A stretch of 64,000 nucleotides of DNA from Armatimonadota bacterium (GTDB lineage: Bacteria; Vulcanimicrobiota; JACPDS01; JBDRKI01), in the NCBI GenBank assembly GCA_043814095.1, contig JBDRKI010000099.1, positions 1-64,000 on the forward strand, read 5' to 3'. Positions 14,223 through 36,391 of the stretch are shown here, in pieces. Position 1 is the stretch's first letter; the number at the start of each line of letters is the position of its first letter. The notes beneath the pieces are model-generated. The model saw only the letters and a program-made list of their open reading frames with translations, had not been told where the DNA came from and did no database searches. A program made the position numbers and the translations under genes.

Positions 14223-14225
14223 AAT

Positions 14226-15470
14226 TTATTTTACTTTTTTTAATCCTTTATCCAGTCTAATATCTTTCATTTTTTCTTCCTTCTCCAGCTTTTCCATTAT
14301 CTTTTTTGTGTCCCTTGCTATAACGAGCTCTTCGTTTGTGGGTATCACAAACACATTTACCTTGCCCGAGCTTATTAAGATATCATTCTTCTCGTTAAGC
14401 TTTTCATCCAGCTTAACACCCATAAATTCCAGGCCTTTTAATGTAAGGGTTCTGGTAATGGGCGATTTTTCGCCAACCCCTGCGGTAAATACTATTGCGT
14501 CCACGCCTCCCATAATAGCCGCGTACGCCCCTATATATTTCTGTATGCGGTGGCAGTATACCTCAAAAGCCACCTTGTGATGCGGGGTTCCTTCAAAATA
14601 CCCTTCTTCTATCTCTCTCATATCATTTGTAATCCCGCTTATGCCCTTGACTCCGCTTTTTTTGTTTAATACATCATCCATTTCGGCAGTGGTAAGCTTT
14701 TCGGAATCCATGATATAAAGGACAAGAGCCGGATCTATATCACCGCAGCGCGTGCCCATCACAAGGCCTTCTAATGGAGTAAAGCCCATTGATGTATCTA
14801 TTGATATGCCGTTTTTAACCGCTGCCATTGACGCGCCGTTGCCAAGGTGGCAGGTAATTATCTTGCACTGGTTATAATGTTTATTCATAAGCTCTGCCGC
14901 TTTATGGGATACATAATGATGGGAAGTACCGTGGAACCCGAATCTTCTCACGCCCAGCTTTGTATAATATTCATAAGGAAGCGCGTAAAGATAAGATTCT
15001 ACCGGCATCTTTGAGTGAAAAGCCGTGTCAAAAACAGCGACATTGGGAACATCGGGCATAAGCTCCTTACAGACTTCTATGCCCTTTAAATTATGCGGGT
15101 TGTGAAGGGGCGCAAATTTTATACAGTTTTTTATCTCTTTTATAACTTCATTGTTTACATATACCGAATCGGTAAATTTTTCACCGCCGTGAACCACCCT
15201 GTGGCCTATGCCTGAAAGTTCTTTTTTATCTTTTATGACACCGTACGATTTATTCGATATTGTCTCAAACACAAGGTTTATCGCTTTGTCGTGATCAAGT
15301 CTGCCGACTTCTTTTTTCATCCTATCTTTACCTGCCGGGTGATATCTTAAAACAGCGCTCTCCTGGCCTATGCATTCAATAAGACCCACAGCCAGAGAGC
15401 TCTCGGTTTTATAACTAAACACCTGAAACTTAACAGATGAACTCCCGCAGTTTAAAACAAGTATTTTCAT
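14226..15470 (-). CDS. ackA: Acetate kinase
   Basis: ILVLNCGSSSVK, GHRVVHGG, APLHNP, FDTAFH, HLGNGAS and PTNEELVIA motifs. Confidence 0.98.
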   Translation of the reverse strand: MKILVLNCGSSSVKFQVFSYKTESSLAVGLIECIGQESAVLRYHPAGKDRMKKEVGRLDHDKAINLVFETISNKSYGVIKDKKELSGIGHRVVHGGEKFTDSVYVNNEVIKEIKNCIKFAPLHNPHNLKGIEVCKELMPDVPNVAVFDTAFHSKMPVESYLYALPYEYYTKLGVRRFGFHGTSHHYVSHKAAELMNKHYNQCKIITCHLGNGASMAAVKNGISIDTSMGFTPLEGLVMGTRCGDIDPALVLYIMDSEKLTTAEMDDVLNKKSGVKGISGITNDMREIEEGYFEGTPHHKVAFEVYCHRIQKYIGAYAAIMGGVDAIVFTAGVGEKSPITRTLTLKGLEFMGVKLDEKLNEKNDILISSGKVNVFVIPTNEELVIARDTKKIMEKLEKEEKMKDIRLDKGLKKVK

Positions 15471-15484
15471 AACAGCCTCCGTTT

Positions 15485-16879
15485 TTAATTAAGAACGACG
15501 GTATCCCTGTATTCCGGAATATTAACTTCCCATTTATATTTTTTCTCTATTTTTTCTTTTAAAGATTCTATCGCCTTTTCTTCGCCGTGCACAAGAAAAA
15601 CCTTTGAAGGGTCGGATTCAAGATTAAAGAGCCAGTATAATATCTCTTCATAATCCGCATGGGCGGAGAAGCCGTTTATGACTTTTATCTTTGCTTCCAC
15701 CGGGAAAATCCGGCCGAATATCTTTATATTCTTCTCCCCCTCTAAAATTCTTCTCCCGCGGGTTCCCTCGGCCTGATACCCGCTGAAAAGTATCGTGTTT
15801 TTAGGGTCGCTTATGCGGTGAACAAGGTGATGCAGTATCCTGCCTCCCGTGCACATCCCGTCAGCGGATATAATAATATTCCCCGCGCCTAATTTATTCA
15901 GTTTTTTGGACTCTTCGTGCTTTCTCACGTAATGAAGGTTGTGGCAGAGTATGGGGGACTGCCCTTTATCTTCAAGCTTCTGCGTTTCTATATCATGGTA
16001 GTTTTTATACTTTAAAAATATTTTGGTCGCATTAATCGCCATGGGAGAATCAATATACACATTTGTCTTTTTGCTGATCCTTCCGGTATCCTGAAGCCTT
16101 TTAATATAATAAAGGATGGCCTGGGTCCTGCCCACAGAGAACGCGGGTATTAACAGAACGCCTCCGGCCGAGAAGGTATCATTAATGACTTTTTCCAGTT
16201 CAAACTCGTTGCTTTCCGAAGAATGAAGCCGGTTCCCGTAAGTTGATTCCAGAACAAGATAATCCGCTTTATATACCGGTGAGGGATTTTTTAATATAGG
16301 CACCTGGTAATGGCCGAGGTCTCCCGAGAAAATAATCCTTCTTACTTTCCCGTCATATCTTAATATAATCTCAAGTATCGCCGAACCGAGGAGATGCCCG
16401 GCATCCAGAAACTTAACCTGTATATTATCGGAAATTTTGTATACCTGATTATAATTTCTCGGCACAAAATACTTAAGGGATTCTTCAGCGTCTCTTACGG
16501 TATACAGGGGCATGGCAACTTCATATTTTGAAAACCCCTTTTTGTTGGCGTAAGCGGCGTATTCTTCCTGCAGGTGCGCCGAATCAAGAAGAAGGATCTG
16601 ACACAGGTCCACAGTGGGCTTTGTCGCCCATATCTGACCCTTAAATCCTTCTTTTGTGAATTTAGGTATATATCCCGTATGATCTATATGCGCGTGCGTA
16701 AGGATGCAGTAATCTATATCTGCGGGGTTAACGGGGAGTTTTTCCCAGTTCCTGCGCCTTAATTCCCTTAATCCCTGATACAAACCGCAGTCTATCAAAA
16801 TATTAACACGCCCGTCGGTTAAATAAAACTTGGATCCTGTAACTGTTTTGGTAGCGCCTAAAAATTGTAATCTAAACAT
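15485..16879 (-). CDS. MBL-fold beta-CASP metallo-hydrolase (RNA-processing family)
   Basis: THAHIDH, AGHLLGS, FSGDLG, ESTYG, GRTQ and FSAHAD motifs. Confidence 0.93.
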   Translation of the reverse strand: MFRLQFLGATKTVTGSKFYLTDGRVNILIDCGLYQGLRELRRRNWEKLPVNPADIDYCILTHAHIDHTGYIPKFTKEGFKGQIWATKPTVDLCQILLLDSAHLQEEYAAYANKKGFSKYEVAMPLYTVRDAEESLKYFVPRNYNQVYKISDNIQVKFLDAGHLLGSAILEIILRYDGKVRRIIFSGDLGHYQVPILKNPSPVYKADYLVLESTYGNRLHSSESNEFELEKVINDTFSAGGVLLIPAFSVGRTQAILYYIKRLQDTGRISKKTNVYIDSPMAINATKIFLKYKNYHDIETQKLEDKGQSPILCHNLHYVRKHEESKKLNKLGAGNIIISADGMCTGGRILHHLVHRISDPKNTILFSGYQAEGTRGRRILEGEKNIKIFGRIFPVEAKIKVINGFSAHADYEEILYWLFNLESDPSKVFLVHGEEKAIESLKEKIEKKYKWEVNIPEYRDTVVLN

Positions 16880-18047
16880 TTATCTCCTGAATAACTTTCT
16901 GGGCTATTTTTTTTGCCCCGCCCGGCGGGCCCATTCTCTCACGCCCTATTTTGGCCATATATTCGTATTTCGCGGGATTTTCTAAAATAGAAATTACTTC
17001 ACCTGCAATCTTAACCGGATCTTTATCAACAACGCTTAAAGCGTCCCCTAAAAGCCCTTTTTGGCGAAGCCTGTACCACCCGAGATTGCCGTCCGGCGTC
17101 TTTTCGGAAAACGCGACAACGGGTTTTCCCAGCCCTACCGCCTGTTCGTTCGCCGTGCCGGCCTGGCCCATAATAATATGGGCCCTGGTTATTATATCCC
17201 CGAAAATACCCCGTGTAAGATACACTGTGGAATTTCCCTTTTTCAGCTCCCCGACAATGCCTTTTGTGTAATTTGTCGGAGTAAGCTCCCATCCCAGACT
17301 TATAGATGGCGCCACCATATCTCCCATATCAACCGAAGAAGCAAGCGCCGTGAAGTATTTTACATCCCAGTTAACTTTTTTGCCCAATACTTCAACCGCC
17401 TGAAGAATCATTGAAAAATCTTTATACACATCTTCGCGGCTCCCAGGAAGTATGCCCACGACAACCTGCGGGTACTGTGTTCCCATGTTGCAGTCAACAG
17501 GATTTATGCAGTCCATCATGACATTCCCCGCAAAAACCGCGTTAATGCCGTAATCCCGCAGATCCGAAGCTGTAACCTCATCCCTGGGAAAAACAGTATC
17601 GCAGTATTTTTTAAAAAGTTTTTTTTCTTTATCCGAATAAGGACAGAAATAATTTGATTTTGCCGTCCCCACAAAAATTTGTTTTCTTTTTGTAAAAAAA
17701 GAATTTAAAATAACCGGGTAAGAATCACCCACTGACAATGAAAGATCTGTTTTTGAACGTATTTTTAATATTGAATTTATCTGCCCGAATGTCAAGCCTA
17801 TAAGCCCGGCTTTTACATCGTTAAAAAGCATCTTTGCGTGATTGGAAGGCACTAGCCCCCCGCTCGGCATAAGTTTGGTAGGACCGAGTTTTTTTACATC
17901 AACATTATTATAGGCATGCCCCTTGCCCACAAGGGGTAAGGCATATACGGTAATCCCCTGATCCGCTTTTTTAATCTCTGAAATTACTTGGGCGGCTATC
18001 TCGTCTTCGCCGTAGCCGTTGCTTAATACCAAAATATTCTTATCCAT
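16872..18047 (-). CDS. Lipid-A-disaccharide synthase-related GT-B glycosyltransferase (TIGR03492-like)
   Basis: LSNGYGED, LPLVGKG, PSGG, GNVMMD, LPGSR, AGTANEQAVGLGKP and RMGPPGGA motifs. Confidence 0.85.
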   Translation of the reverse strand: MDKNILVLSNGYGEDEIAAQVISEIKKADQGITVYALPLVGKGHAYNNVDVKKLGPTKLMPSGGLVPSNHAKMLFNDVKAGLIGLTFGQINSILKIRSKTDLSLSVGDSYPVILNSFFTKRKQIFVGTAKSNYFCPYSDKEKKLFKKYCDTVFPRDEVTASDLRDYGINAVFAGNVMMDCINPVDCNMGTQYPQVVVGILPGSREDVYKDFSMILQAVEVLGKKVNWDVKYFTALASSVDMGDMVAPSISLGWELTPTNYTKGIVGELKKGNSTVYLTRGIFGDIITRAHIIMGQAGTANEQAVGLGKPVVAFSEKTPDGNLGWYRLRQKGLLGDALSVVDKDPVKIAGEVISILENPAKYEYMAKIGRERMGPPGGAKKIAQKVIQEINV

Positions 18048-18056
18048 AAAACACCC

Positions 18057-18821
18057 TTATAATTTTATAAGTTCGGTGGTTTCTATATCAAATTTTTTAC
18101 TTCCCGGTTCTTTGCCCTTTTCTTTTTTATATACATTTAAATTTATCTTTGTTATATACCTTCCGTGGCTGCCGGAATAAAAAATAAAGCTGTTCCCTGC
18201 CGCTACCGGCTCTTTTAGCGCTTTATGGTCATGCCCTCCTAAAAAGATAAGGCTCTCTTGAAGGCTTTCCGCGATCTTTATGCATCTTTCGTATTCAAGA
18301 TGCATAAGCACGATTATAATGTCTGCTTTATCTTTTATCTCCTCGATTACATCTTTAAGAGATATTATATAATCCGTAAATTCAAATCCCGATAAGTTTT
18401 TCAAAAAAGAGCCCGGACCATACTGCCGGGGGGTTATCCCCGTTACGGCTATGTTTACCCCGTTTAAGTTCTTAATAATATACCGTTTTATAAGATTTTC
18501 ATTTTTCAGGTCTTTCAGGTTGGCGGAAACAAAAGGCATTTCTGTCTGTTTTACCCTGTTTTTAAAAATACTTCTCAGGTAATGAAACTCCCTGTTTCCC
18601 ACAGCCACCGCATCATAGCCCGCGTCACGCATTTTATCCAGTATATCTTCTCTTTTTTTAAAAACAGTTGAGCTTCCCCATATCGCGTCTCCGGAATCCA
18701 GAAGCAGGCTGTTCTGCCTGTTTATGGGGAGCTGTTCCAGATAAGGAAAAACCGCCCTCTCATTATGCAGATCGGTTGTGTGATAAATTAAAATCTTTTC
18801 ACCTGCCATATCCCGTTCCAT
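18057..18821 (-). CDS. Calcineurin-like metallophosphoesterase (5'-nucleotidase/UshA N-terminal domain only); candidate UDP-diacylglucosamine hydrolase
   Basis: HTTDLH, DSGD, GNREF, FVSAN, LMH and GGHDH motifs; no signal peptide and no C-terminal domain; alternative start at 18809. Confidence 0.8.
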   Translation of the reverse strand: MERDMAGEKILIYHTTDLHNERAVFPYLEQLPINRQNSLLLDSGDAIWGSSTVFKKREDILDKMRDAGYDAVAVGNREFHYLRSIFKNRVKQTEMPFVSANLKDLKNENLIKRYIIKNLNGVNIAVTGITPRQYGPGSFLKNLSGFEFTDYIISLKDVIEEIKDKADIIIVLMHLEYERCIKIAESLQESLIFLGGHDHKALKEPVAAGNSFIFYSGSHGRYITKINLNVYKKEKGKEPGSKKFDIETTELIKL

Positions 18822-20704
18822 ATCATCCCGACTATTGAGGCATCGCGGTTAATCATTAAAGCCATTATGATCATCATAGCGGCGATAATGGCCAGCGTGT
18901 GTATCTCAGCCTTAAAAATAACCTGCCAGTTAAAACGTCCCTGCAGTTCAAAATAAGGGCGCAGCGCGTTAGGTATAATTCTCGGGACCATTTTAGCGTA
19001 TATAAGGTAGGGTTCCCCGAAGGTTTCGTATAAATATACTTCTTCCAGAGGAATTATGATGCCGTAAACTACCATATATCCCATAAGAAAGAGCATAAGC
19101 ACGATAACTCTTTCTACGGACAGCATACCGCCTATGGCCATAAAATAAAAGCCAAGGGCTGTTACGCAGTTGCCCAGATACAGGGGATTTTTAATATAGG
19201 CGTAGGGGCCCGCCGTAACAAGCTGCGGGGCCATAAGCTCGCTTTCCCTCGTGGTTGAGCCCGCGTACCCGACACCCCAGATACGCAGAAATTCGCCCCC
19301 GAAAACAAAGATAAGTCCGAACAAAAACGAATACAGCGTGGGACGCGCGATAAAAAGCACAAAAACAGCCAGAGGCGCGAGAATCCAACCGCGCCATCCG
19401 AAAACAAACTCCCTGAAAGGCGTGCGTATTTTATGCGCATTGGCAAATAAATTTACGCTTGAATCAAGCGAACTTAATATAAGTTCGGCTATCTTCGTTG
19501 AAGCATCATGCTTGCCTTTAGTCACCTCAATTAATTCGTGGCTCATTTTTTCCCTTACATCATCATTCTTTAAAAGCTCCGCGGCCACATTCGTAACTTC
19601 TTCAGCTTTCTGTTCCACAATAACTTCAGGCACAATTTCTTTATCGGCAATCTGGTTTGGAAGCGCCGTAAATTTAATTCTCTTTAGTATCCAGTAAAGA
19701 AGCTTCTTCCTGAAAAAGGAGCCCATCGGAAGCGAACCCAGAAAGCCGGTAAGCCCGCCGCGCGGTATTTTCGCGCGCCATGTTGATGAAACAATCATGG
19801 GTTTTCCGAGCGCGGCCACTTCAGCGGTATTGGTGCCAGGTATGGTAAGCACAAGGTCGGATAAATTAATCACATCATACTGCATGCCCTGGAGCACCCT
19901 TACCTTAAGGCCTTTCTCCGTTTTTATAAACAACGAGCCGTTATTGGTTATAAGCTCGGCTTTTGTGCCCTCCAGCCCGCTGCCGGAAGGAGTAAGGCAT
20001 TTTTCAAGATCTTTTAAAGATAAAAACGGTGATACGCCGAGTAAAAACTGTATGTTGCTGAAACGGTCTTTCAGCTCTTCCGCCACTTTTAAATAGTAAG
20101 GAAGGCTTTCTTTCACATGATAGAACCTGCTGCCCGGAAGTATGCCGACAGTATGAGAAGTCTCTTCTATGCCCCACTGTTTGCTCACAGCCAGCTTATC
20201 AAGGGTGGGCTTTGCCTGTTCAACCATTAGATTCCCGACAACCACAATCCTGTCTTTTTTAAACCCCAAATCTGCCATCTCCTGGGCTATTGCCTCATCC
20301 TGCACGCCGAGGTAATCAAAATATTTATTCCATTTTGACGCTTTTACCGAATATGCGACCGAAGGATACCTGAGCCTTCTGGAGACTATAAGAGCGTGCC
20401 AGAAATCCCCGCCCAGAAAAACCACGCTCCCGAAAGCGGCGGGAGAATATTTTTTAAGCCTGAAACCGAAAAGAAACTGTACAAACTCTTTAGGATTTAT
20501 AACAACATCAACACCGTCAATGGCTTTGGCAATTTCTTCTTCTTTACCGCTCGCGTAAGGACACGGTACAAGCATAACAATTATGCGTATCTCCGGACGA
20601 CTTAATTTTAACTTTGCAATTGTTATTCTCACCCATGAAGAAAGCTCTCCCGGACTGTTTGTTATTATAACTATATCTTTTTTCTTATCATCAACTTTAA
20701 GCAT
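18788..20704 (-). CDS. LpxB-like GT-B glycosyltransferase fused to a C-terminal ICMT/PEMT-family membrane methyltransferase (LmtA-like)
   Basis: N-part has ITNSPGELSSW, LVPCPYASG, FLGGD, LPGSR, PGTNTAE and ALPN...IVPE; C-part has LRIWGVGY, LVTAGPYAYIKNPLYLGN and EEVYL...FG. Probable ATG at 20704 (track start 20749). Confidence 0.82.
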   Translation of the reverse strand: MLKVDDKKKDIVIITNSPGELSSWVRITIAKLKLSRPEIRIIVMLVPCPYASGKEEEIAKAIDGVDVVINPKEFVQFLFGFRLKKYSPAAFGSVVFLGGDFWHALIVSRRLRYPSVAYSVKASKWNKYFDYLGVQDEAIAQEMADLGFKKDRIVVVGNLMVEQAKPTLDKLAVSKQWGIEETSHTVGILPGSRFYHVKESLPYYLKVAEELKDRFSNIQFLLGVSPFLSLKDLEKCLTPSGSGLEGTKAELITNNGSLFIKTEKGLKVRVLQGMQYDVINLSDLVLTIPGTNTAEVAALGKPMIVSSTWRAKIPRGGLTGFLGSLPMGSFFRKKLLYWILKRIKFTALPNQIADKEIVPEVIVEQKAEEVTNVAAELLKNDDVREKMSHELIEVTKGKHDASTKIAELILSSLDSSVNLFANAHKIRTPFREFVFGWRGWILAPLAVFVLFIARPTLYSFLFGLIFVFGGEFLRIWGVGYAGSTTRESELMAPQLVTAGPYAYIKNPLYLGNCVTALGFYFMAIGGMLSVERVIVLMLFLMGYMVVYGIIIPLEEVYLYETFGEPYLIYAKMVPRIIPNALRPYFELQGRFNWQVIFKAEIHTLAIIAAMMIIMALMINRDASIVGMIWNGIWQVKRF

Positions 20705-20705
20705 A

Positions 20706-21860
20706 TTACTCCTCAACTTTATTAATAATATCGCGGATGAGCCCGGCAACTTTATTAATTACGCCGCCGGATTCAAAATTTTCTTTAATTCTTCGTAAAT
20801 CGCAGAGCATATCCCTTCTGGCGGGACTTTCTTTAATAAGCTCGCGCGCAAGCACGCTTATCCTGCGCGGACTTATGTCTTTTTGAATAAATTCAGGAAC
20901 GACTTCTTTTCCCAGAATAATATTAGGCAGAGAAATATGCTTAAGGTACGGGAATAATATCTTTGCCGCCGTATAATCAAACCAGTTTAACCTGTATAAG
21001 ACTATCATGGGGGTTAAAAAATACGCGGCCTCAAGAGTCGCTGTCCCGCTTGAAGTTATAATAAGATCGGATGCCTGCATTACATCATAAGCGGACCGGG
21101 TAACCCGTACAGGAAAGCCTGTCTTTGCCCTTGTTAAGTAATCCCTTATAATCTTCTCTATATGGGGCGATGAAGCCGGTATCATAAAGAAGGTCTCCGG
21201 GTCTTTCTCGTGAATCAGCATGGAAGTCTCTATCATACTGCCCAGAAGGAGCCTGACTTCATGAGCCCTGCTGCCGGGAAGAAGCCCTATAACCTTATCT
21301 TCTTTTATCCTGTACTCTTTTTTTATGCTGTGTTTATCCCTGCGCGCATCCTCTATTGCGTCAACTATTGGGTGGCCGAAATAATAAACTTTTTTTCCTG
21401 CTTTTTCATACATATTTTTAGTATGTTCAAAAACAGGTACGACATAATCAAAGAACCGGGCGTAACGGCGGGTTTTATCAAGATTTTCTTTCCTCCATGC
21501 GGAAGGCGGAAAATAATACATCATCTTGATGTTGTGTTTTTTAACATACTCCGCTATGCGCACATTTATTGCGGGCGAATCTATTAAAATCAAAAGATCG
21601 GGCTTGAATTTCACTATATCTTTTTTAAGCTTATCCACCTTAAACCACAGGTAGGGAACTTTCTTAACGGCTTCCCATATGCCTATAACTCCCCATGAAG
21701 AAGTATCCGTAAAATGTTCAAGCTCCTCGGATTTTAAACTGTGTCCGCCGGCTCCAAGAAACACAATATTATTATCCATCTGCTTCAGTTTCTTTACCAG
21801 TAATGAAGAATGCAGATCTCCAGAGGATTCAAACGAAGTTATGGCTATTTTTTTGTTCAT
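20706..21860 (-). CDS. lpxB: Lipid-A-disaccharide synthase
   Basis: ESSGDLH, LIDSP, PPSAW, GHP, LLPGSRAHE, SGTATLE, ISLPNII and VPEFIQ motifs; directly downstream of lpxA. Confidence 0.92.
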   Translation of the reverse strand: MNKKIAITSFESSGDLHSSLLVKKLKQMDNNIVFLGAGGHSLKSEELEHFTDTSSWGVIGIWEAVKKVPYLWFKVDKLKKDIVKFKPDLLILIDSPAINVRIAEYVKKHNIKMMYYFPPSAWRKENLDKTRRYARFFDYVVPVFEHTKNMYEKAGKKVYYFGHPIVDAIEDARRDKHSIKKEYRIKEDKVIGLLPGSRAHEVRLLLGSMIETSMLIHEKDPETFFMIPASSPHIEKIIRDYLTRAKTGFPVRVTRSAYDVMQASDLIITSSGTATLEAAYFLTPMIVLYRLNWFDYTAAKILFPYLKHISLPNIILGKEVVPEFIQKDISPRRISVLARELIKESPARRDMLCDLRRIKENFESGGVINKVAGLIRDIINKVEE

Positions 21861-21871
21861 AAAAAATTACA

Positions 21872-21917
21872 GGGCCGGTTTTGTGAAATTCAAAATTGAA
21901 ATTCTCAAAACTGGCCC
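21872..21917. repeat. Imperfect inverted repeat between lpxA and lpxB
   Basis: GGGCCGGTTTTGTGAAATT...AATTCTCAAAACTGGCCC; on the minus strand it is followed by TGTAATTTTTT and then the lpxB ATG. Confidence 0.6.
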
Positions 21918-21927
21918 CGGTACTCCA

Positions 21928-22710
21928 TTATTTTCCGACTATTCCCAGCCTTGACGGATTATTTAAAAAATCTACCAAATGGCGGACTTCTTTGTCTGAA
22001 TTAAGATTGCTGTTAATTTCATCAACAGCCTGACCTATATTGAGTTTGGAATCCATAATATATTTGTACGCTTTTTTAAGCTCTTTTCTTCCTTTTTCGT
22101 CAATGCCTTTACGCGCCAATCCCCTGTAGTTTATACCGTAAAGTTTGATAGGCTGGCCGTCAGCGATTGAAAAAGGAGGCACGTCTTTTACTACCTTGGA
22201 AAAACCGCCTACCATTGCCATCTTGCCTATTTTGGCAAACTGGTGGATACCCGTCATACCGCCTATAACGGCATGATCTTCCACTTCAACATGACCGGAA
22301 AGCCCTGTTGAATTGGCGATTACTATGCCGCTGCCGAGCACGCAGTTGTGTGCCACGTGCACAAAAGCCATAAGCATATTATCGTTTCCGATAACTGTCT
22401 TTCCGCCTTCGTCCGCGGCCCTGTGAACGGTTATGAATTCGCGCAGTATATTATTGTCGCCTATCTCAACATAGCTTTCAAAATCCTTGTATTTTAAATC
22501 CTGGGGGGGAGCGCCTATAACGGATGAGACCCCTATCTTGTTGTTACTGCCTATTTTAGTCCATCCCTCTATAACACAGTGAGAAGCTATTTTGGTATTA
22601 TCGCCTATTATGACATTTTTCCCGATTATGGAATAAGGGCCTACCTCTACTCCCTTGCCTAATTTGGCCCCTTGATCAATGATAGCCGTAGGGTGTATCA
22701 CTTGCTTCAC
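21928..22710 (-). CDS. lpxA: Acyl-ACP--UDP-N-acetylglucosamine (or UDP-GlcNAc3N) acyltransferase
   Basis: Hexapeptide repeats, PQDLKY, HVAHNC (catalytic His), GHV, HQF and DVPPF motifs. Confidence 0.97.
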   Translation of the reverse strand: MKQVIHPTAIIDQGAKLGKGVEVGPYSIIGKNVIIGDNTKIASHCVIEGWTKIGSNNKIGVSSVIGAPPQDLKYKDFESYVEIGDNNILREFITVHRAADEGGKTVIGNDNMLMAFVHVAHNCVLGSGIVIANSTGLSGHVEVEDHAVIGGMTGIHQFAKIGKMAMVGGFSKVVKDVPPFSIADGQPIKLYGINYRGLARKGIDEKGRKELKKAYKYIMDSKLNIGQAVDEINSNLNSDKEVRHLVDFLNNPSRLGIVGK

Positions 22711-22711
22711 C

Positions 22712-23695
22712 TCAATTTTTTGTCATGGCCAGATATTCTTCAGCAAGCTCTCTGTTGCGTTTTACCGTTTTCATGGAGCTTACAATCTGCATGGCCAGCT
22801 CCAGCGCGCGTTTGCCGTCTTCCCCCGAAACCATGGGGGTTTTATGCTGTGACACGCATTCTATGAAATGAGCCAGCTCCAGGCGCAGAGGTTCGTCTTT
22901 CTCAACATATATATGCTCAAATGTATTGGGTTTGCCGTTCATGGGCGGTTTCATTAAAGTTACCGCCTGGTTTATAAAATCAAGAAGCAGGGTCCTGCCG
23001 TTCTCAATAACCTTCATCTGCCTTAGCTTCTCACCGCTTACCCTGGAGGATAAAAGCTGGGCGACACAGCCGTTTTTAAATGTGATCTTCACTATCGCCA
23101 GATCCTCAAAATCAGAGTATACGGATATCCCTGTTGCCTGAATCTCCTTAATATCCGATTTAACAATATTAAGAAGTATATCAAGATCATGAACCATTAA
23201 ATCCCAGACAATGCCCACGTCTAAATTCCTGTTTGTGGGGAAAGACATTCTCTGGGCTTCAATAAATAAAGGTTCGTTTATAAGTTTTTTAAACATCAGC
23301 ATCGCGGGATTAAACCTCTCCAGGTGGCCTACCTGCAGAATCATGTCTTTGCCGTTTGCCATATCTATTAATTCTTTGGCCTGACTCAAATCGGTTGTTA
23401 TAGGTTTTTCAATCATTACATGTATATTTCTGCTTAAAAAATCTTTGGCAATCTGATGGTGAAGATTTGTCGGAACTGCAATATTGACGGCGTCTACTTT
23501 TGCAAAAAGATCCTTATAATCAACGTAATAATCGGTCTGCAGCTTTCTCGCGACTCCTTCGCCGAGATCTTTCTGAATATCAACAAGGCCGGTCAGCTCA
23601 ACATTTTCCATTTCCGAATATATTCTGGCGTGGTGCCTGCCCATGTTGCCTACACCTATAACACCAACTCTGATTTTATTACTCAAAGCGTTCAC
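22712..23695 (-). CDS. Gfo/Idh/MocA oxidoreductase, GnnA-like (UDP-GlcNAc 3-dehydrogenase)
   Basis: GVGNMG, EKP, VGHLERFNPA and DLMVHDLD motifs; 1 bp from lpxA. Confidence 0.8.
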   Translation of the reverse strand: MNALSNKIRVGVIGVGNMGRHHARIYSEMENVELTGLVDIQKDLGEGVARKLQTDYYVDYKDLFAKVDAVNIAVPTNLHHQIAKDFLSRNIHVMIEKPITTDLSQAKELIDMANGKDMILQVGHLERFNPAMLMFKKLINEPLFIEAQRMSFPTNRNLDVGIVWDLMVHDLDILLNIVKSDIKEIQATGISVYSDFEDLAIVKITFKNGCVAQLLSSRVSGEKLRQMKVIENGRTLLLDFINQAVTLMKPPMNGKPNTFEHIYVEKDEPLRLELAHFIECVSQHKTPMVSGEDGKRALELAMQIVSSMKTVKRNRELAEEYLAMTKN

Positions 23696-23734
23696 CTCTG
23701 CTTAAACAGCGTATTTTTCCCGTATATTGTGATT

Positions 23735-23763
23735 ATTATCTTACAAAAGATATCTTATGTCAA
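23735..23763 (-). promoter_or_regulatory. Internal sigma-70/A promoter upstream of the gnnA-like gene and lpxA-lpxB module
   Basis: TTGACA-17 bp-GATAAT on the minus strand in the 92-bp gap after lpxC-fabZ. Confidence 0.65.
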
Positions 23764-23787
23764 TATTAAAATATATTATTATATCTC

Positions 23788-25053
23788 TTATTTTTCCACC
23801 ACGAGGGCAAACATAAGTTCGCCTTCAGCCACCACCTTGTCTTCCACTTTAGCGATGACTTTAACCTTGCCCATCTGGTTGCTTCTTAAGCTGATAACAT
23901 CGGCCTCAATTAAAAGCTGGTCTCCCGGAACAACGGCTTTTCTGAATTTTACCTTGTCTATCCCGGCAAAGAAAGGGGTTATTTTTTTGTCTCTGCGCCC
24001 GTTTAAAAGCATAATGCCGCCCACCTGGGCCATTGCCTCAATAATTAAAACACCCGGCATAATCGGATTCCCGGGGAAATGACCGTTAAAGAACGGCTCG
24101 TTTATCGTTACGTTTTTTATCCCGACAGACCTTTTATCGTTCTCAAGCTCAAGAATCCTGTCCACCAGCAAAAACGGATAACGGTGCGGTAAAATACCGA
24201 ATATCTCTTTAATATTAATGTCAGCCACTGTACCCTCCTTAACCACAGGCAGTCTTTTGATAAAATCAATATCCAGACTATGGCTGGATTTATAAGCGTA
24301 AATATGCGCCTTAAGCGGTTTTCCCAAAACGGCCAGATCTCCGATAAGGTCCAGTCCTTTATGGCGGACAATCTCGTCATCAAAACGGAGTTTGGTCATT
24401 ATACTATCCTGTTTTATAACCACTGCGTTATCAAGAGAGCCGCCAAGAGCCAGATTTCTTTCCTTTAAGCTCTCTACTTCCTCCCAGAAACCAAAAGTTC
24501 TCGCGGGAGCAACTTCGGAAAGAAAATCATTTTTTTCCTTAATAAAATCAAAACTCTGGGCACCTACCATGGGATGGTTAAAATTTACCAGAGTTGTAAT
24601 TTTCAGTTCATCCGCGGGATGAGCGGTTATGAAAGAGTCGCCCTTTTTAAACGAGAACGGCTCTTTTATTATAAGATAGGATTTATCGGCGTTCTGTTCA
24701 AGCAGATGAGATTTTATCTCGGCGGCAAAAGGAAGAGCACTCCCGTCTAAAGCCGGTATTTCTTCGCCGCTTACCTCTATAAGCAGGTTATCAACCCCGT
24801 AAGCGTAAAGCGCCGCCAGAAGATGTTCCACCGTCCTGACATTACAGTTTTTTGTTCCTACGGATACGGAACGAACTGTAGACAATACACCAGCCGGACA
24901 CAATTCAATCTCGGGCGTTCCTGGAAGATCTACACGTTTAAATTTAATGCCGTAATTTTCTTCCCTGGGAATCAATCTGACTTTTACCTCTGTACCCGAG
25001 TGAAGGCCTATGCCGGAAAATTCCAGTTCTTGTTTTAATGTTTTCTGCTTCAT
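23788..25053 (-). CDS. lpxC/fabZ: Bifunctional LpxC-FabZ fusion
   Basis: LpxC motifs [24 protein letters not shown] and [10 protein letters not shown]; FabZ motifs [11 protein letters not shown] and [20 protein letters not shown]. Confidence 0.97.
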
Positions 25054-25090
25054 TTTAAACCGTTATTTATTTTGTTTTGATTAGATTGAC

Positions 25091-26089
25091 TTATTTTGCC
25101 TTATTTTCAAGTTCTTCTATTCTTTTATTAAAACTTTCAATGGTTTTAGAGAGGGATGTCATATATGACTGCATTTTTAATTCTTCCCTGTGGCTCTTTG
25201 CGGGGAAACCGCTTACCATGCTTTTGGGTTTTATCTCTTTTGTAACACCGGCGCGTCCGAGCACCATTGTGTCATGCCCTATCTTCACGTGATCGGATAC
25301 CCCCACCTGGGCCGCCAGTATAACCCGGTCTCCGACTTTGGAAGATCCTGCTACACCGGTCATGGCAACGATTATACAATCTTCACCTATCTCAACATTA
25401 TGTGCTATATGAACAAGGTTGTCTATCTTAGTGCCCCTGCCTATCCTGGTAGCGCCTGTTGTGGCTCTGTCCACGCAGGTATTTGAACCGATCTCCGCCT
25501 CATCTCCTATATGCACGGTGCCGAGCTGGGGTATCTTAAAATTCTTAGCGCCTTCCTTAACATAGCCGAAGCCTTCGGAACCTATTACCGCGCCGCTGTA
25601 TATGATCACACTGCGCCCCATAAAAACCCTGTCAAATATGACAGCATTGGGATAGATTACCGTTCCTGCGCCTATTTCAGCGCCTTCACCTATATAAACA
25701 CCGGCATGAATCTGAACATTATCACCGATAACGGCGCCCTTATTAATCACCGCGTTCGGACCCACGGCAACATCTTTGCCGAGCCGCGCTTCAGGGTCTA
25801 TAACCGCCTTCTCGTGTATGCCGTTAAGAGGCGTTTTTACTTCAAACAAACCCAAAACTTTCGCAAACGCAAGCTTTGGATCGCCGGCAACAAGAAGGGT
25901 CTTGCCCCTAATGTCAGTATATTTAATTTTATTGCTCGCGATAATAACGCCTGCCGTGGAGTTTAAGGCCTTCTCAAAATTTCTCGTATCCGCCGCCCAG
26001 ATGATGGAACTCGGACCGGAAATTTCCACATCATCGCCTTTTAATTCGGCTTTTATTTCCCGCGCTATTTCGCTTGCTTTAAAAGACAT
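25091..26089 (-). CDS. lpxD: UDP-3-O-(3-hydroxyacyl)glucosamine N-acyltransferase
   Basis: Hexapeptide repeats, IGSEGFGY, KIPQLG, TKIDNLVHIAHNV and SGFPA motifs; probable ATG at 26089 (track start 26125). Confidence 0.96.
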   Translation of the reverse strand: MSFKASEIAREIKAELKGDDVEISGPSSIIWAADTRNFEKALNSTAGVIIASNKIKYTDIRGKTLLVAGDPKLAFAKVLGLFEVKTPLNGIHEKAVIDPEARLGKDVAVGPNAVINKGAVIGDNVQIHAGVYIGEGAEIGAGTVIYPNAVIFDRVFMGRSVIIYSGAVIGSEGFGYVKEGAKNFKIPQLGTVHIGDEAEIGSNTCVDRATTGATRIGRGTKIDNLVHIAHNVEIGEDCIIVAMTGVAGSSKVGDRVILAAQVGVSDHVKIGHDTMVLGRAGVTKEIKPKSMVSGFPAKSHREELKMQSYMTSLSKTIESFNKRIEELENKAK

Positions 26090-26099
26090 TTCAATACCT

Positions 26100-26507
26100 T
26101 TACTGCAGTTTATTTTTAATTTCATCGGTTATATCTATTCCGCCGTATTCCACGGCAAAATCCACCACTACAATATTCAGTTTCTTTTTCTTCGCGATTT
26201 GCGCAACCACTTCTTCAAGCTTTTCATCAAGAGCGTTGCCTTTTTCCTTCCATTTTTCGTTCATCTGCTCAATAACCGCCTTTTGTTTGTCCGTTATCTT
26301 AGACGGGTCTTTGGGCAGTTTGCCGAGCAGAAGATCGCTCTCAACCTGGTACTCGCTCATCAAGTCCCTGTATTCCGCCCAGTTGGCAAGAAGCTTATAC
26401 CTGTTAATAATGCCTGTTTTTAAATTTGCCGGCTTACACCCGGTGACAGAAATAATAATCCCCATACATATAAACAACACTGCCGCGACTATAACTATTT
26501 TTTTCAT
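26100..26507 (-). CDS. Small OmpH/Skp-like protein with lipobox
   Basis: Lipoprotein signal ...SVTGC; Skp-type C-terminus (IAKKKKLNIVV...YGGIDITDEI). Confidence 0.7.
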   Translation of the reverse strand: MKKIVIVAAVLFICMGIIISVTGCKPANLKTGIINRYKLLANWAEYRDLMSEYQVESDLLLGKLPKDPSKITDKQKAVIEQMNEKWKEKGNALDEKLEEVVAQIAKKKKLNIVVVDFAVEYGGIDITDEIKNKLQ

Positions 26508-26516
26508 ACGTCCTCC

Positions 26517-27830: not shown

Positions 27831-27859
27831 ATTAACACGATCCCTCTATAATCAAACTT

Positions 27860-28684: not shown

Positions 28685-28706
28685 GATTTAAACCTCCTTG
28701 TTTTTA

Positions 28707-30836: not shown

Positions 30837-30912
30837 CTTTATGCTCCTTGATTATGTAAAAGTTTGCCGTTATATTGCATGTGTAGCAAAAAAGTCTTTT
30901 ATCTTTCTATAA

Positions 30913-30941
30913 GTTATACCACAATCCTCTTAATATATCAA
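30913..30941 (-). promoter_or_regulatory. Sigma-70/A promoter for bamA-skp-lpxD-lpxC
   Basis: TTGATA-17 bp-TATAAC with extended -10 TG on the minus strand. Confidence 0.55.
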
Positions 30942-30973
30942 TATCTAATATATTATAATAAATTAGCACTGTT

Positions 30974-36253: not shown

Positions 36254-36353
36254 AATATAATTTAAATAACTTCTAAATTTTAATAAAATAACCTTCTGCA
36301 TTACGAATTAATTTAGTAGTCGCAAAAAATTCATTATTATTTATATTTTCAAT

Positions 36354-36391
36354 AAAAAACCGCCATGAATAACTTATCATAACGGTTTTTT
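36354..36391. terminator. Intrinsic terminator-like hairpin
   Basis: AAAAAACCGCCATGA...TCATAACGGTTTTTT. Confidence 0.55.

What the first reader, a model, noticed from the sequence alone, without database searches (positions are those of the whole stretch)
16872..23763. Self-promoted, non-canonical lipid A module: GnnA-like, LpxA, three LpxB-family enzymes, a fused methyltransferase and an atypical phosphoesterase
Seen: an internal TTGACA-17-GATAAT promoter precedes six tightly coupled genes (gnnA-like, lpxA, lpxB, lpxB-like::ICMT fusion, metallophosphoesterase, TIGR03492-like GT). No lpxH/lpxI/lpxG, lpxK, waaA/kds or msbA occurs anywhere in the 39-kb envelope cluster. Known: the Raetz pathway needs one LpxB, a UDP-diacylglucosamine hydrolase, LpxK and WaaA; cyanobacteria lack the late steps and carry LpxB-related GTs; Leptospira uses GnnA/GnnB and the methyltransferase LmtA. 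Inference: this may be an undescribed route to a Kdo-free, possibly 2,3-diamino and phosphate-methylated lipid A, with the extra GT-B paralogs adding sugars in place of LpxK/WaaA.
Basis: partly seen in the sequence, partly recalled or inferred. Interest (0 to 1): 0.85.

Follow-up and report, generated by a model that had tools for sequence, protein, structure and literature searches.

The report
Kdo-free lipid A operon variant
An uncultured bacterium makes its outer-membrane anchor lipid with a gene set that lacks the usual late enzymes and carries instead an unstudied phosphoesterase, two extra LpxB-like sugar transferases and a methyltransferase, which gives testable candidates for steps that have been unaccounted for since such short pathways were first seen in cyanobacteria.

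Summary
They continue a TamB-BamA-Skp-LpxD-LpxC/FabZ envelope cluster. LpxH, LpxI, LpxK, WaaA and KdsA were not found in the 99%-complete genome. None passed its family cut-off in 41 same-phylum genomes, apart from one marginal LpxK match, and LpxL was 0 of 41.

The order LpxA-LpxB-(GTx-MT)-MPE-T3492 is conserved across the phylum. Three gene fusions link the parts: LpxB::GTx, GTx::MT and MPE::T3492.

The "atypical phosphoesterase" is a short UshA-type metallophosphoesterase. Its catalytic His is always Arg (GNRE), the substitution that marks LpxH. In 34 related operons it is mutually exclusive with LpxI: 17 have MPE only, 16 LpxI only, none both. I read it as a fourth, convergent UDP-diacylglucosamine pyrophosphatase (about 0.6).

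GTx and T3492 are true LpxB homologues with the UDP-binding and catalytic motifs intact. Genomes that carry them almost always lack LpxK and WaaA. They probably glycosylate the lipid A disaccharide; this is inferred.

In 3 of 8 relatives a GnnB-type aminotransferase sits beside the GnnA-like gene.

A Kdo-less "four-enzyme" pathway has been in print since 2010, so this is a new variant. It comes with strong enzyme candidates and no biochemistry.

The parts
25091..26125 (-). lpxD (upstream, same cluster)
   Evidence: NF002060 331.2 bits, cut-off 207
23788..25053 (-). lpxC-fabZ fusion gene (upstream, same cluster)
   Evidence: TIGR00325 272.6 bits (cut-off 187) and FabZ NF000582 190.7 bits (cut-off 113) in one 421-aa ORF
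23735..23763 (-). sigma-70-like promoter motif TTGACA-17-GATAAT
   Evidence: Read directly. It is the best of 38 consensus sites in 14000-31000 (11 of 12), but the number of sites is not above shuffles. An RNA-library contig at 23548-23784 spans it. Function is not shown.
22712..23695 (-). GnnA-like GFO/IDH/MocA dehydrogenase (candidate UDP-GlcNAc 3-dehydrogenase)
   Evidence: NF040723 271.7 bits, below the cut-off of 450. The best solved relative is 7bvj, 172.6 bits. A DegT gene is adjacent in 3 of 8 assessable relatives.
21928..22710 (-). lpxA
   Evidence: NF003657 341.6 bits, cut-off 226
20706..21860 (-). lpxB (GT19 lipid-A-disaccharide synthase)
   Evidence: TIGR00215 210.8 bits, cut-off 190.25; Pfam LpxB 251.9 bits. 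PGSR motif in 11 of 11 orthologues.
19450..20704 (-). GTx: LpxB-like glycosyltransferase domain of the fused gene (domain border approximate)
   Evidence: hhalign against LpxB gives probability 99.9, E 3e-37. PGSR in 11 of 11 and GG[DE] in 11 of 11. Fused to LpxB in one genus (845-aa ORF). It is a separate gene from MT in most relatives.
18788..19449 (-). MT: membrane ICMT/PEMT-type methyltransferase domain of the fused gene
   Evidence: PEMT 26.0 bits (cut-off 25), ICMT 22.4 (24), LmtA TIGR04571 47.4 (325). The motifs GPYxxvRNPlYxGN and EExxLxxxFGxxYxxY are conserved in 34 homologous ORFs.
18057..18821 (-). MPE: short cytoplasmic UshA-type metallophosphoesterase with GNRE, candidate UDP-2,3-diacylglucosamine pyrophosphatase
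   Evidence: No signal peptide or membrane helix seen in the translation (by eye). GNRE in 17 of 17 orthologues and GNR[ED] in 81 of 82 short representatives. Model pLDDT 93; nearest folds are 5'-nucleotidase/UshA N-domains. Mutually exclusive with LpxI in operons.
16872..18047 (-). T3492: TIGR03492 LpxB-related glycosyltransferase
   Evidence: TIGR03492 298.8 bits, cut-off 219.2. hhalign against LpxB gives probability 99.0, and against GTx 99.6. LPGS[RK] in 16 of 16. Present in 41 of 41 same-phylum genomes.

Best explanation
The block is the distal half of a lipid A operon of the short, Kdo-independent type. This is the 'four-enzyme pathway' plus lineage-specific completing enzymes.

Shown here: LpxD, LpxC-FabZ, LpxA and LpxB are canonical. 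The genome and its phylum have no detectable LpxH, LpxI, LpxK, WaaA, KdsA or LpxL.

Inferred chain of steps:
1. The GnnA-like dehydrogenase, with a DegT aminotransferase encoded elsewhere in this genome, may convert UDP-GlcNAc to UDP-GlcNAc3N.
2. LpxA, LpxC and LpxD make the UDP-diacyl sugar.
3. The short GNRE metallophosphoesterase (MPE) cleaves its pyrophosphate to give lipid X. This is the job of LpxH, LpxI or LpxG elsewhere. MPE uses UshA-type UDP-sugar hydrolase chemistry and has the same His-to-Arg change that LpxH acquired.
4. LpxB condenses the two halves.
5. GTx and T3492, two diverged LpxB homologues that keep the UDP-pyrophosphate motif and the catalytic acid, add sugars from UDP-sugar donors to the tetra-acyl disaccharide. 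With no LpxK or WaaA, the free 4' and/or 6' hydroxyls are the likely sites. These sugars start a Kdo-free core.
6. The LmtA-like membrane methyltransferase fused to GTx methylates the product, most simply on the 1-phosphate.

Export would go through the LptFG-type system present on another contig.
For: Gene identities.

Absences in G000 (98.97% complete): LpxK, WaaA, LpxH, LpxI, KdsA.

Absences in 41 same-phylum genomes, G000 included:
- LpxK: 1 of 41 over the cut-off. That match is marginal (26.7 bits, 29.3 with its neighbours, in a 455-aa frame).
- WaaA 0 of 41; LpxI 0 of 41; LpxH 0 of 41.
- KdsA 0 of 41 over the cut-off; LpxL 0 of 41.

Conservation:
- T3492 is present in 41 of 41 genomes.
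- A short MPE copy is present in 40 of 41, and lies within about 1 kb of T3492 in 35 of 41. This is my reading of the coordinates.
- The order LpxD-LpxC-(GFO)-LpxA-LpxB-(GTx-MT)-MPE-T3492 holds in the loci fetched from 17 relatives.

Fusions: LpxB::GTx (816-847-aa frames in six genomes of one genus). GTx::MT (this genome and others). MPE::T3492 (P0073 and P0290).

MPE:
- GNRE in 17 of 17 orthologues.
- Of the 148 best representatives read out of 150, 81 of 82 short ones have GNR[ED]. Of the 66 long 5'-nucleotidases, 64 carry GNH[DE]; of the other two, one has GNRE and one has no such motif.
- Opiyo et al. state that His-to-Arg in block GNH(E/D) occurs only in LpxH (PMC3087551, passages).
- No LpxH chain matches the MPE profile at E<=10, so the change is convergent.
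- Among the 34 of 80 T3492 loci that also hold LpxA and LpxB, 17 have MPE only, 16 have LpxI only, none has both and 1 has neither.

GTs:
- hhalign probabilities are 99.9, 99.0 and 99.6.
- The residues that Bohl et al. list for E. coli LpxB (E15, D98, P198-R201, E281; PMC5785501) are kept.
- Of 27 T3492-bearing genomes outside the phylum that I searched, 26 lack both WaaA and LpxK.

Other:
- A DegT gene lies between fabZ and the GnnA-like gene in L014, L016 and L024.
- LptF/G is present.
- In one related locus the gene after T3492 is a Wzy_C O-antigen ligase.
Against: - No biochemistry, no lipid analysis and no clean transcript data exist for any of these genes.
- A YaeI/LpxG-like phosphoesterase exists on contig C48 (NF033458 131.8 bits, cut-off 350) and could be the hydrolase.
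- MPE sits next to T3492 and is fused to it in two proteins. It is neither next to nor fused to LpxB, the enzyme that would consume its product.
- T3492 rings above the cut-off in two control genomes, which I take to be Synechococcus elongatus and Deinococcus radiodurans. By my recollection D. radiodurans makes no lipid A. The family is therefore not tied to lipid A everywhere.
- One Halothermotrichaceae-labelled genome has GTx and T3492 as well as LpxK and WaaA. Papers report lpxK and kdtA in Halothermothrix orenii and in Halanaerobiales (PMC2626281, PMC5007114).
- Completeness of the 27 outside genomes is unknown.
- The MPE and LpxI operon types follow two clades, so the exclusivity may reflect one replacement event and not many independent ones.
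- This genome has no DegT gene on the window's contig.
- The MT scores far below the LmtA cut-off (47 against 325 bits).
- No cyanobacterial member of the MPE family was seen, so MPE does not explain the cyanobacterial gap.
Confidence: 0.5

Rival explanations
1. The operonic MPE is not the UDP-diacylglucosamine hydrolase. The YaeI/LpxG-like phosphoesterase on contig C48, or an unknown enzyme, makes lipid X. MPE would then act later, for instance by removing the 1-phosphate of the disaccharide or by cleaving a nucleotide- or diphosphate-linked intermediate made or used by T3492.
For: The C48 protein (L111:495-1409) hits LpxG NF033458 at 131.8 bits and YaeI at 102.5 bits. MPE is adjacent to T3492 in 35 of 41 genomes and is fused to it in P0073 and P0290. 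Cyanobacterial lipid A is reported to lack phosphate (PMC3087551), so a dephosphorylating step is needed somewhere in such pathways.
Against: The LpxG-like match is below the cut-off in 41 of 41 genomes. It is missing at E<=1e-10 from 16 of 41, including all 7 genomes of family f12 and all 3 of f9, and these still carry LpxA-LpxB-MPE-T3492. The same model rings in Bacillus subtilis and Lactococcus lactis, which have no lipid A. MPE and LpxI never co-occur in the 34 operons compared. The His-to-Arg change matches LpxH.
Confidence: 0.17
2. GTx, MT and T3492 do not modify lipid A. They build a separate membrane glycolipid and are only co-located and co-regulated with the lpx genes. The lipid A here would stop at a bare, or otherwise finished, disaccharide.
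For: TIGR03492 rings in Deinococcus radiodurans, which by my recollection has no lipid A. T3492 stands without lpx neighbours in many of the 80 loci. A GTx paralogue on C102 lies in a different context, next to ADP-heptose genes.
Against: There is an LpxB::GTx fusion in one genus. The position directly after lpxB is kept in both the MPE-type and the LpxI-type operons, across differently labelled phyla. Lpt genes and an MsbA-like exporter are interleaved with GTx and T3492 in L048 and L069. An O-antigen ligase follows T3492 in L081.
Confidence: 0.13
3. GTx and/or T3492 are alternative disaccharide synthases, that is, LpxB isozymes. They would serve, for example, GlcN3N versus GlcN halves or differently acylated halves. 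They would not add further sugars.
For: All three share fold, UDP-pyrophosphate motif and catalytic acid. A GnnA-like gene implies two possible sugar backbones.
Against: The three families are old and distinct (about 19-26% identity in the profile alignments). They co-occur in nearly every genome, including those without the GnnA-like gene. GTx diverges from LpxB in the N-terminal, acceptor-side half: only columns 127-441 align.
Confidence: 0.1
4. The canonical late genes exist but were missed, either through extreme divergence or because they lie in the unassembled 1%. The product would be ordinary Kdo2-lipid A.
For: G000 has 129 contigs. Marine Armatimonadota MAGs are reported to encode KdsABCD and KdtA (PMC10290634, passage).
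Against: Five families are absent from a 98.97%-complete genome. The same holds for 31 same-phylum genomes that are at least 90% complete, two of them in a single contig. The control genomes ring as expected in every search.
Confidence: 0.03

Closest known systems
'Four-enzyme pathway' of Cyanobacteria and Dictyoglomi (Opiyo et al. 2010, PMC3087551)
   Same: The cluster is lpxD-lpxC-fabZ-lpxA-lpxB and nothing else of the nine Raetz enzymes is present: no LpxH, LpxK, WaaA or LpxL. Controls show Synechococcus elongatus ringing for TIGR03492 but not for LpxK, WaaA, LpxH or LpxI.
   Different: This is a different lineage; the contig titles read Armatimonadetes, Xenobia and Vulcanimicrobiota. The operon here carries four further conserved genes (MPE, GTx, MT, T3492) that the 2010 paper does not discuss in the passages I read. 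No cyanobacterial MPE was seen.
UDP-2,3-diacylglucosamine hydrolases LpxH, LpxG (calcineurin-like phosphoesterases) and LpxI
   Same: MPE belongs to the same superfamily as LpxH and LpxG. All five metallophosphoesterase blocks are present, and block 3 reads GNR(E), as in LpxH only. It lies in an lpx operon and is mutually exclusive with LpxI.
   Different: MPE has no sequence match to LpxH (TIGR01854; no LpxH chain at E<=10) and none to LpxG. It belongs to the 5'-nucleotidase/UshA branch. It has no membrane helix, whereas LpxG has one (PMC4807358). Its activity is untested.
UshA / 5'-nucleotidase (UDP-sugar hydrolase) family
   Same: The N-terminal metallophosphatase fold matches (Foldseek E 6e-17 to 1ush; profile 105 bits to UshA). 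The chemistry needed, UDP-sugar to UMP plus sugar-1-phosphate, is UshA's own.
   Different: MPE lacks the C-terminal 5_nucleotid_C substrate domain (254 aa against about 520-550). It has no signal peptide. The catalytic His of GNHE is Arg.
LpxB, lipid-A-disaccharide synthase (GT19; E. coli structures 5W8S/5W8X)
   Same: GTx and T3492 are homologues (hhalign probability 99.9 and 99.0). They keep the E, D, PGSR and E residues listed for E. coli LpxB.
   Different: GTx scores 53.6 bits against a cut-off of 190 on TIGR00215. T3492 has no Pfam LpxB hit. A canonical LpxB is encoded next to them, so they are paralogous families of unknown acceptor and donor.
LmtA, lipid A 1-phosphate methyltransferase of Leptospira (TIGR04571)
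   Same: It is in the same ICMT/PEMT membrane methyltransferase superfamily. LmtA is the best-scoring methyltransferase model in NCBIfam (47.4 bits). The gene sits in a lipid A operon.
   Different: The score is far below the model's cut-off of 325 bits. The conserved motif reads RN where, as I recall, ICMT enzymes usually have RH. It is fused or adjacent to a glycosyltransferase. The substrate is untested.
GnnA/GnnB (UDP-GlcNAc 3-dehydrogenase and transaminase; Acidithiobacillus, Leptospira)
   Same: The best solved relative is 7bvj (172.6 bits). The gene lies next to lpxA, and a DegT partner is adjacent in three relatives.
   Different: The score is below the archaeal equivalog cut-off (271.7 against 450). 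This genome has no adjacent aminotransferase; it has nine strong DegT genes elsewhere.
Outer-membrane gene cluster of diderm Firmicutes (Antunes et al. 2016, PMC5007114)
   Same: The envelope cluster has the same TamB/BamA/Skp-lpx layout. LpxI-type relatives with LpxA-LpxI-LpxB-GTx-T3492 followed by Lpt genes carry Bacillota and Halanaerobiales titles.
   Different: That paper reports lpxACDIBK/waaM/waaA/kdsABCD. Here LpxI, LpxK, WaaA and Kds are absent and MPE is present.

Membership tests
Raetz pathway, complete (Kdo2-lipid A) | LpxK, WaaA, Kdo synthesis (KdsA) and late acyltransferase LpxL/M are present | tested here: not met
   G000: no match to PF02606, PF04413 or TIGR01362. PF03279 0 of 41, G000 included. 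Phylum: LpxK 1 of 41 (marginal), WaaA 0 of 41, KdsA 0 of 41 over the cut-off.
Four-enzyme lipid A pathway (Opiyo 2010) | Only LpxA, LpxC, LpxD and LpxB of the nine enzymes, clustered as lpxD-lpxC-fabZ-lpxA-lpxB | tested here: met
   definition from PMC3087551 passages.
LpxH (TIGR01854) | Sequence membership above the model cut-off | tested here: not met
   No match in G000 or in 41 of 41 genomes. The MPE profile finds no LpxH chain at E<=10.
LpxH (TIGR01854) | Block 3 reads GNR(D/E) instead of GNH(D/E) | tested here: met
   GNRE in 17 of 17 orthologues and GNR[ED] in 81 of 82 short representatives. Feature definition from PMC3087551.
LpxH / LpxG / LpxI (function) | Hydrolyses UDP-2,3-diacylglucosamine to lipid X and UMP | not testable with these tools
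   Only indirect evidence: operon position and mutual exclusivity with LpxI.
LpxG (NF033458) | Score above 350 bits | tested here: not met
   MPE has no hit. The C48 protein scores 131.8 bits. 0 of 41 genomes are over the cut-off.
LpxI (PF06230/PF17930) | LpxI domains present | tested here: not met
   0 of 41, G000 included. The model works: L069:4571-5374 scores 156 and 120 bits.
5'-nucleotidase / UshA | N-terminal metallophosphatase domain plus C-terminal 5_nucleotid_C domain, with GNHE | tested here: not met
   Only the N-domain is present. There is no PF02872 hit, and His is replaced by Arg.
LpxB (TIGR00215, GT19) | Score above 190.25 bits | tested here: met
   Met for 20706-21860 (210.8 bits). 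Not met for GTx (53.6 bits) or for T3492 (no hit).
TIGR03492 (LpxB-related protein) | Score above 219.2 bits | tested here: met
   298.8 bits for 16872-18047.
LmtA (TIGR04571) | Score above 325 bits; methylates the lipid A 1-phosphate | tested here: not met
   47.4 bits. Activity is not testable here.
ICMT/PEMT methyltransferases | Pfam gathering score and conserved C-terminal motifs | tested here: inconclusive
   PEMT 26.0 (cut-off 25) passes; ICMT 22.4 (cut-off 24) does not. The motifs are conserved in 34 homologues.
GnnA/GnnB | UDP-GlcNAc 3-dehydrogenase with a partner aminotransferase, linked to lpxA | tested here: inconclusive
   Dehydrogenase 271.7 bits against a cut-off of 450. The top solved relative is 7bvj. 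The partner is adjacent in 3 of 8 relatives but not in G000.

The most novel reading that the evidence does not exclude
The short GNRE phosphoesterase is a fourth, independently evolved class of UDP-2,3-diacylglucosamine pyrophosphatase, after LpxH, LpxI and LpxG. GTx and T3492 found two new GT19-like families that build a Kdo-independent inner core directly on a lipid A disaccharide that was never 4'-phosphorylated. This alternative late pathway would be shared by the Xenobia/Vulcanimicrobiota/Armatimonadetes-labelled phylum, many diderm Bacillota-labelled MAGs, Aerophobetes and probably cyanobacteria. If so, it is the long-missing second half of the 'four-enzyme' pathway.
Probability: 0.3. 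Interest if true: 0.85.

Novelty: new variant of a known kind. Interest (0 to 1): 0.68.

Why it matters
Lipid A synthesis is the textbook example of a conserved, essential pathway and a drug target. Yet whole phyla have only its first half, and nobody has shown how they cleave UDP-diacylglucosamine or attach a core without Kdo.

This operon puts strong candidates side by side, linked by conserved order and three gene fusions. One is a phosphoesterase that arrived at LpxH's signature substitution from a different branch of the superfamily. The others are two LpxB paralogue families with intact active sites and an LmtA-like methyltransferase.

Each candidate can be tested with assays that already exist: lpxH complementation, lipid X thin-layer assays, UDP-release glycosyltransferase assays, and lipid A mass spectrometry. 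If the candidates hold up, Kdo and the 4'-phosphate would no longer count as universal features of lipopolysaccharide, and there would be markers for recognising LPS-type outer membranes in uncultured Terrabacteria.

Tried and rejected
- The search for related loci with the MPE alignment A1 failed because no stretch was conserved enough. I used the T3492 alignment A2 instead.
- The listing of cluster members on ten short MPE representatives gave no organism names.
- Literature: 'TIGR03492' is in 0 papers. Searches for LpxB-like/LpxB paralogue terms, for Terrabacteria with LpxK and Kdo, and for Eremiobacterota/Armatimonadota with LPS found no paper that gives a function to T3492, GTx or the short phosphoesterase. 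They may list lipid A genes of relatives.
- I could not confirm from a paper that 7bvj is GnnA.
- Foldseek of the T3492 model ranks UDP-GlcNAc 2-epimerases first and lists no LpxB. I take this as GT-B clan likeness. E. coli LpxB is a domain-swapped dimer (PMC5785501), and I relied on the profile comparison.
- LptD (PF04453) gave no match, but the model rings only in E. coli and Caulobacter among the controls, so this says little.
- PF00149 scanned over the six frames of the genome did not even recover MPE itself, so that list of phosphoesterases is not exhaustive.
- Sequencing runs: only small shares were held (0.07-0.13 of the words). The parts of the block without contig cover in runs X1-X3 say nothing.
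- The ESM Atlas lists cyanobacterial clusters as nearest to GTx (0.98-0.99). The cyanobacterial link for GTx remains a lead.
- I did not search for MsbA in G000.

Full report
**What is there.** The window is contig C99 of a 2.50-Mb genome in 129 contigs, 98.97% complete. Between 36301 and 16872 every gene is on the minus strand. In order they are:
- TamB (30974-36301), BamA (28707-30836) and three Skp/OmpH paralogues;
- LpxD (25091-26125) and an LpxC-FabZ fusion (23788-25053);
- then the six genes of the finding.

Further upstream lie MreB, MurA, the ATP synthase operon, WecB, a GT4 transferase and MlaEFD. "Envelope cluster" is therefore a fair name.

The six genes are:
- a GFO/IDH/MocA dehydrogenase, nearest to UDP-GlcNAc 3-dehydrogenase (271.7 bits, cut-off 450);
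- LpxA and LpxB, both above their cut-offs;
- a 638-653-aa fusion of an LpxB-like domain ("GTx") with a PEMT/ICMT/LmtA-like membrane methyltransferase ("MT");
- a 254-aa metallophosphoesterase ("MPE");
- a TIGR03492 protein ("T3492"; 298.8 bits, cut-off 219).

The TTGACA-17-GATAAT motif is present at 23763..23735 and is the best consensus site in 17 kb. The number of such sites is what shuffles give.

**Absences.**

In G000 I found no LpxK, WaaA, LpxH, LpxI or KdsA. The control genomes rang as expected each time.

The same holds for the 41 same-phylum genomes, G000 included, of which 31 are at least 90% complete:
- LpxK: 1 of 41 over the cut-off, a marginal 26.7-bit match;
- WaaA 0 of 41;
- LpxI 0 of 41;
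- LpxH 0 of 41;
- KdsA 0 of 41 over the cut-off. Sub-cut-off matches of about 100-136 bits in 39 of 41 look like the related DAHP synthases that also ring in Bacillus and Thermotoga;
- LpxL 0 of 41.

LptF/G is present.

The Kdo-free route as such is nonetheless not new.

**Which phylum.** Earlier notes of this scan call the genome Armatimonadota.

Titles of homologous proteins and loci read Armatimonadetes, Candidatus Xenobia, Vulcanimicrobiota or Eremiobacteraeota. Some read "Bacillota", "Chloroflexota" or "Synergistia".

Marine Armatimonadota MAGs are reported to have KdsABCD and KdtA (PMC10290634, passage). That does not fit the 0 of 41 found here. The lineage is therefore probably the Xenobia/Eremiobacterota-type one. 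I leave this open.

The cultured Vulcanimicrobium alpinus is described as diderm. Its major fatty acids include iso-C14:0 3-OH and iso-C13:0 3-OH (PMC9758169, passages), which fits a lipid A-like lipid.

**Conservation and fusions.**

- The fused protein finds relatives in 40 of 41 genomes.
- T3492 is in 41 of 41, and in 34 it is over the cut-off.
- A short MPE copy is in 40 of 41; G025 shows only long 5'-nucleotidases.
- From the coordinates, MPE lies within about 1 kb of T3492 in 35 of 41 genomes. The six exceptions are G003, where MPE sits beside GTx::MT 13 kb from T3492; G009, G022, G027 and G031, where the two are on different contigs; and G025.

I fetched 20 loci from 17 relatives and annotated them by BLAST against the window's proteins. 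The order is LpxD-LpxC-(FabZ)-(GFO)-LpxA-LpxB-(GTx-MT)-MPE-T3492.

The minimal form, LpxA-LpxB-MPE-T3492, is seen in L019, L025, L026 and L029. MPE and T3492 are thus the core additions. GFO, GTx and MT are common but movable.

Three fusions tie the parts together:
- LpxB::GTx, as 816-847-aa open frames in six genomes of one genus (L027);
- GTx::MT, here and in several relatives, while most relatives have two adjacent genes;
- MPE::T3492, in P0073 (650 aa) and P0290 (640 aa), both keeping GNRE.

**The phosphoesterase.**

MPE shows no signal peptide or membrane helix when read by eye.

Its nearest solved relatives are the N-terminal domains of 5'-nucleotidases and UshA. The AlphaFold model (pLDDT 93) says the same. 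It lacks the C-terminal substrate domain of that family.

In the alignments the GNHEF of the nucleotidases is GNREF here. Arg is invariant in 17 of 17 orthologues and in the 22-sequence alignment A1.

A profile search of 1.84 billion representatives gave 27,458 hits. I read 148 of the best 150:
- 81 of the 82 short proteins (<330 aa) have GNR[ED] and 1 has GNHE;
- 64 of the 66 long, multi-domain proteins carry GNH[DE]. Of the other two, one has GNRE and one has no such motif.

Opiyo et al. state that among metallophosphoesterases this His-to-Arg change in block 3 is found only in LpxH. MPE is not an LpxH: it has no TIGR01854 match and no LpxH chain matches its profile at E<=10. The change is therefore convergent.

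UshA's own reaction is UDP-sugar to UMP plus sugar-1-phosphate. By name (NF007109) and by my recollection, that is the chemistry needed here.

The phyletic pattern agrees.
- A scan of GTDB species genomes with the T3492 alignment found 339 relatives, of which the best 80 loci were kept.
- 29 of the 80 have a GNRE MPE beside T3492.
- 34 of the 80 also hold LpxA and LpxB. Of these, 17 have MPE only, 16 have an LpxI-type gene between lpxA and lpxB only, none has both, and one (L053) has neither.
- LpxI identity was confirmed by Pfam for L069.
- All 12 qualifying loci of the relatives' set are MPE only.

The two operon types follow two groups of organisms. This may therefore be a single replacement and should not be read as many independent events.

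The rival candidate is a 304-aa YaeI/LpxG-like protein on C48 (LpxG model 131.8 bits, cut-off 350). In relatives it is never over the cut-off. It is absent at E<=1e-10 from 16 of 41 genomes, including whole families that keep the lpx-MPE-T3492 operon. The model also rings in Bacillus subtilis and Lactococcus lactis.

I put MPE = UDP-diacylglucosamine pyrophosphatase at about 0.6.

Two points count against it:
- MPE is adjacent and fused to T3492 and not to LpxB, the enzyme that would use its product.
- No cyanobacterial member was seen; the ESM Atlas taxa are Armatimonadota, Vulcanimicrobiota and Bacillota.

**The two extra glycosyltransferases.**

Profile-profile comparison shows real homology:
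- GTx against LpxB: probability 99.9, E 3e-37, over the C-terminal 264 columns;
- T3492 against LpxB: 99.0, E 8e-18, full length;
- T3492 against GTx: 99.6.

Bohl et al. list E15, S17, D98, P198-G199-S200-R201, T277 and E281 as the E. coli LpxB active site (PMC5785501, passages). The equivalents are kept:
- PGSR in 11 of 11 LpxB and 11 of 11 GTx sequences;
- LPGS[R/K] in 16 of 16 T3492 sequences (14 R, 2 K);
- the Asp of the putative base as GG[D/E] in 11 of 11 GTx and [V/S]GD in 16 of 16 T3492;
- the ribose-binding Glu invariant in all three.

They are thus most likely active, inverting, UDP-sugar-dependent transferases working at the membrane surface.

Their position directly after lpxB is kept in the LpxI-type operons too: LpxA-LpxI-LpxB-GTx-(MsbA-like ABC exporter)-T3492. 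In L069 these are followed by a sugar-1-phosphate nucleotidyltransferase, LptA, LptB and LptFG.

Outside the phylum I searched 27 T3492-bearing genomes for WaaA and LpxK. 26 have neither. One Halothermotrichaceae-labelled genome has both, side by side. Completeness of these 27 is unknown.

Papers report lpxK and kdtA in Halothermothrix orenii and a full set in Halanaerobiales (PMC2626281, PMC5007114).

The association between these GTs and the absence of LpxK and WaaA is therefore strong but not absolute. TIGR03492 also rings in Deinococcus radiodurans.

My reading is that they glycosylate the tetra-acyl disaccharide and so start a Kdo-free core. That is inference, at about 0.45.

Other observations agree with LPS assembly, but none shows the acceptor:
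- a GTx paralogue on C102 lies next to the two halves of HldE (ADP-heptose synthesis);
- the genome has five GT9 matches;
- in L081 an O-antigen ligase follows T3492.

**The methyltransferase and the diamino sugar.**

The MT domain keeps the family's motifs, GPYxxvRNPlYxGN and EExxLxxxFGxxYxxY, in 34 homologous ORFs. Its best NCBIfam methyltransferase match is LmtA, at 47 bits against a cut-off of 325.

It recurs in both operon types: next to GTx, or between lpxA and lpxB.

Without LpxK, the 1-phosphate is the only phosphate available. LmtA-like methylation of it is the simplest guess, at about 0.35.

The GnnA reading rests on three things:
- the model hit;
- 7bvj as the best solved relative. 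I recall this entry as A. ferrooxidans GnnA and could not confirm it from a paper;
- a DegT aminotransferase (417 and 397 bits) placed between fabZ and the dehydrogenase gene in 3 of 8 assessable relatives: L014, L016 and L024.

G000 has nine strong DegT genes, none of them on this contig. A GlcN3N backbone is plausible here, at about 0.5.

**Transcription.** Run X2, a groundwater metatranscriptome, holds four short contigs at least 99% alike. They lie at 20302-20514, 20820-20987, 21941-22139 and 23548-23784.

The last one spans the promoter-like site and ends 4 nt short of the lpxC-fabZ stop. At a depth of about 2, and with DNA carry-over possible, this is only a hint. It suggests that the block is expressed and that some transcripts read through from upstream. 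"Self-promoted" is not shown.

**Verdict.** It probably mis-casts the phosphoesterase, overstates the novelty of a Kdo-free route, and leaves the GT and MT functions unproven.

What is new is a coherent, fusion-linked set of candidate enzymes for the unexplained steps of short lipid A pathways. I found no paper that assigns them a function (searches; supplements closed).

Noticed in passing
window 15485-16879 (-): A beta-CASP metallo-beta-lactamase ribonuclease gene starts 8 nt inside the end of the T3492 gene. It scores 420 bits on the Cas14 MBL/CASP model (cut-off 800) and 313 bits on archaeal aCPSF1 (cut-off 580). It is not next to T3492 in the relatives examined.
   Followed up: partly
L022:10303-11397 (-); also L037, L040, L044, L045: In one family of relatives a second LpxD-like acyltransferase gene lies between lpxB and GTx, in addition to the canonical lpxD. 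This hints at N-acylation of a further amino sugar.
   Followed up: no
L016:15712-17511, L022:16255-17763, L024:15446-17293, L027:14126-15958; G000 homologue L115:7221-9044 (-): A conserved protein of about 600 aa with no Pfam or NCBIfam family sits between lpxD and lpxC in several relatives. In this genome its homologue (about 26% identity) is on another contig.
   Followed up: partly
L114:5046-9630 (G000 contig C102): A GTx paralogue (402 aa) lies in a row with the two separate halves of HldE (heptose-7-phosphate kinase and heptose-1-phosphate adenylyltransferase) and an asparagine-synthase-type amidotransferase.
   Followed up: no
P0216, P0226: Two TIGR03492 homologues carry the JGI name 'tetraacyldisaccharide 4'-kinase'. 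This looks like an annotation transfer error, but it shows that pipelines may report LpxK where there is none.
   Followed up: no
window 26517-27830 (-): One of the three Skp/OmpH paralogues is 437 aa long, and the OmpH match covers only its last 130 residues. The N-terminal 300 residues are unassigned.
   Followed up: no
window 36001-38000: GC drops to 0.32 here, against about 0.42 elsewhere. The stretch lies around an Rce1-like CAAX protease gene (36880-37779) and a 580-nt gap upstream of tamB.
   Followed up: no
window 63310-64000 and beyond (C99:64009-64752): A full-length 5'-nucleotidase (518-aa frame with the 5_nucleotid_C domain) lies at the window's edge. It is the long paralogue of the short MPE.
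   Followed up: no
G000, whole genome: G000 lacks even the sub-cut-off KdsA/DAHP-synthase-like match that 39 of 41 same-phylum genomes show. Its route to aromatic amino acids may therefore differ.
   Followed up: no
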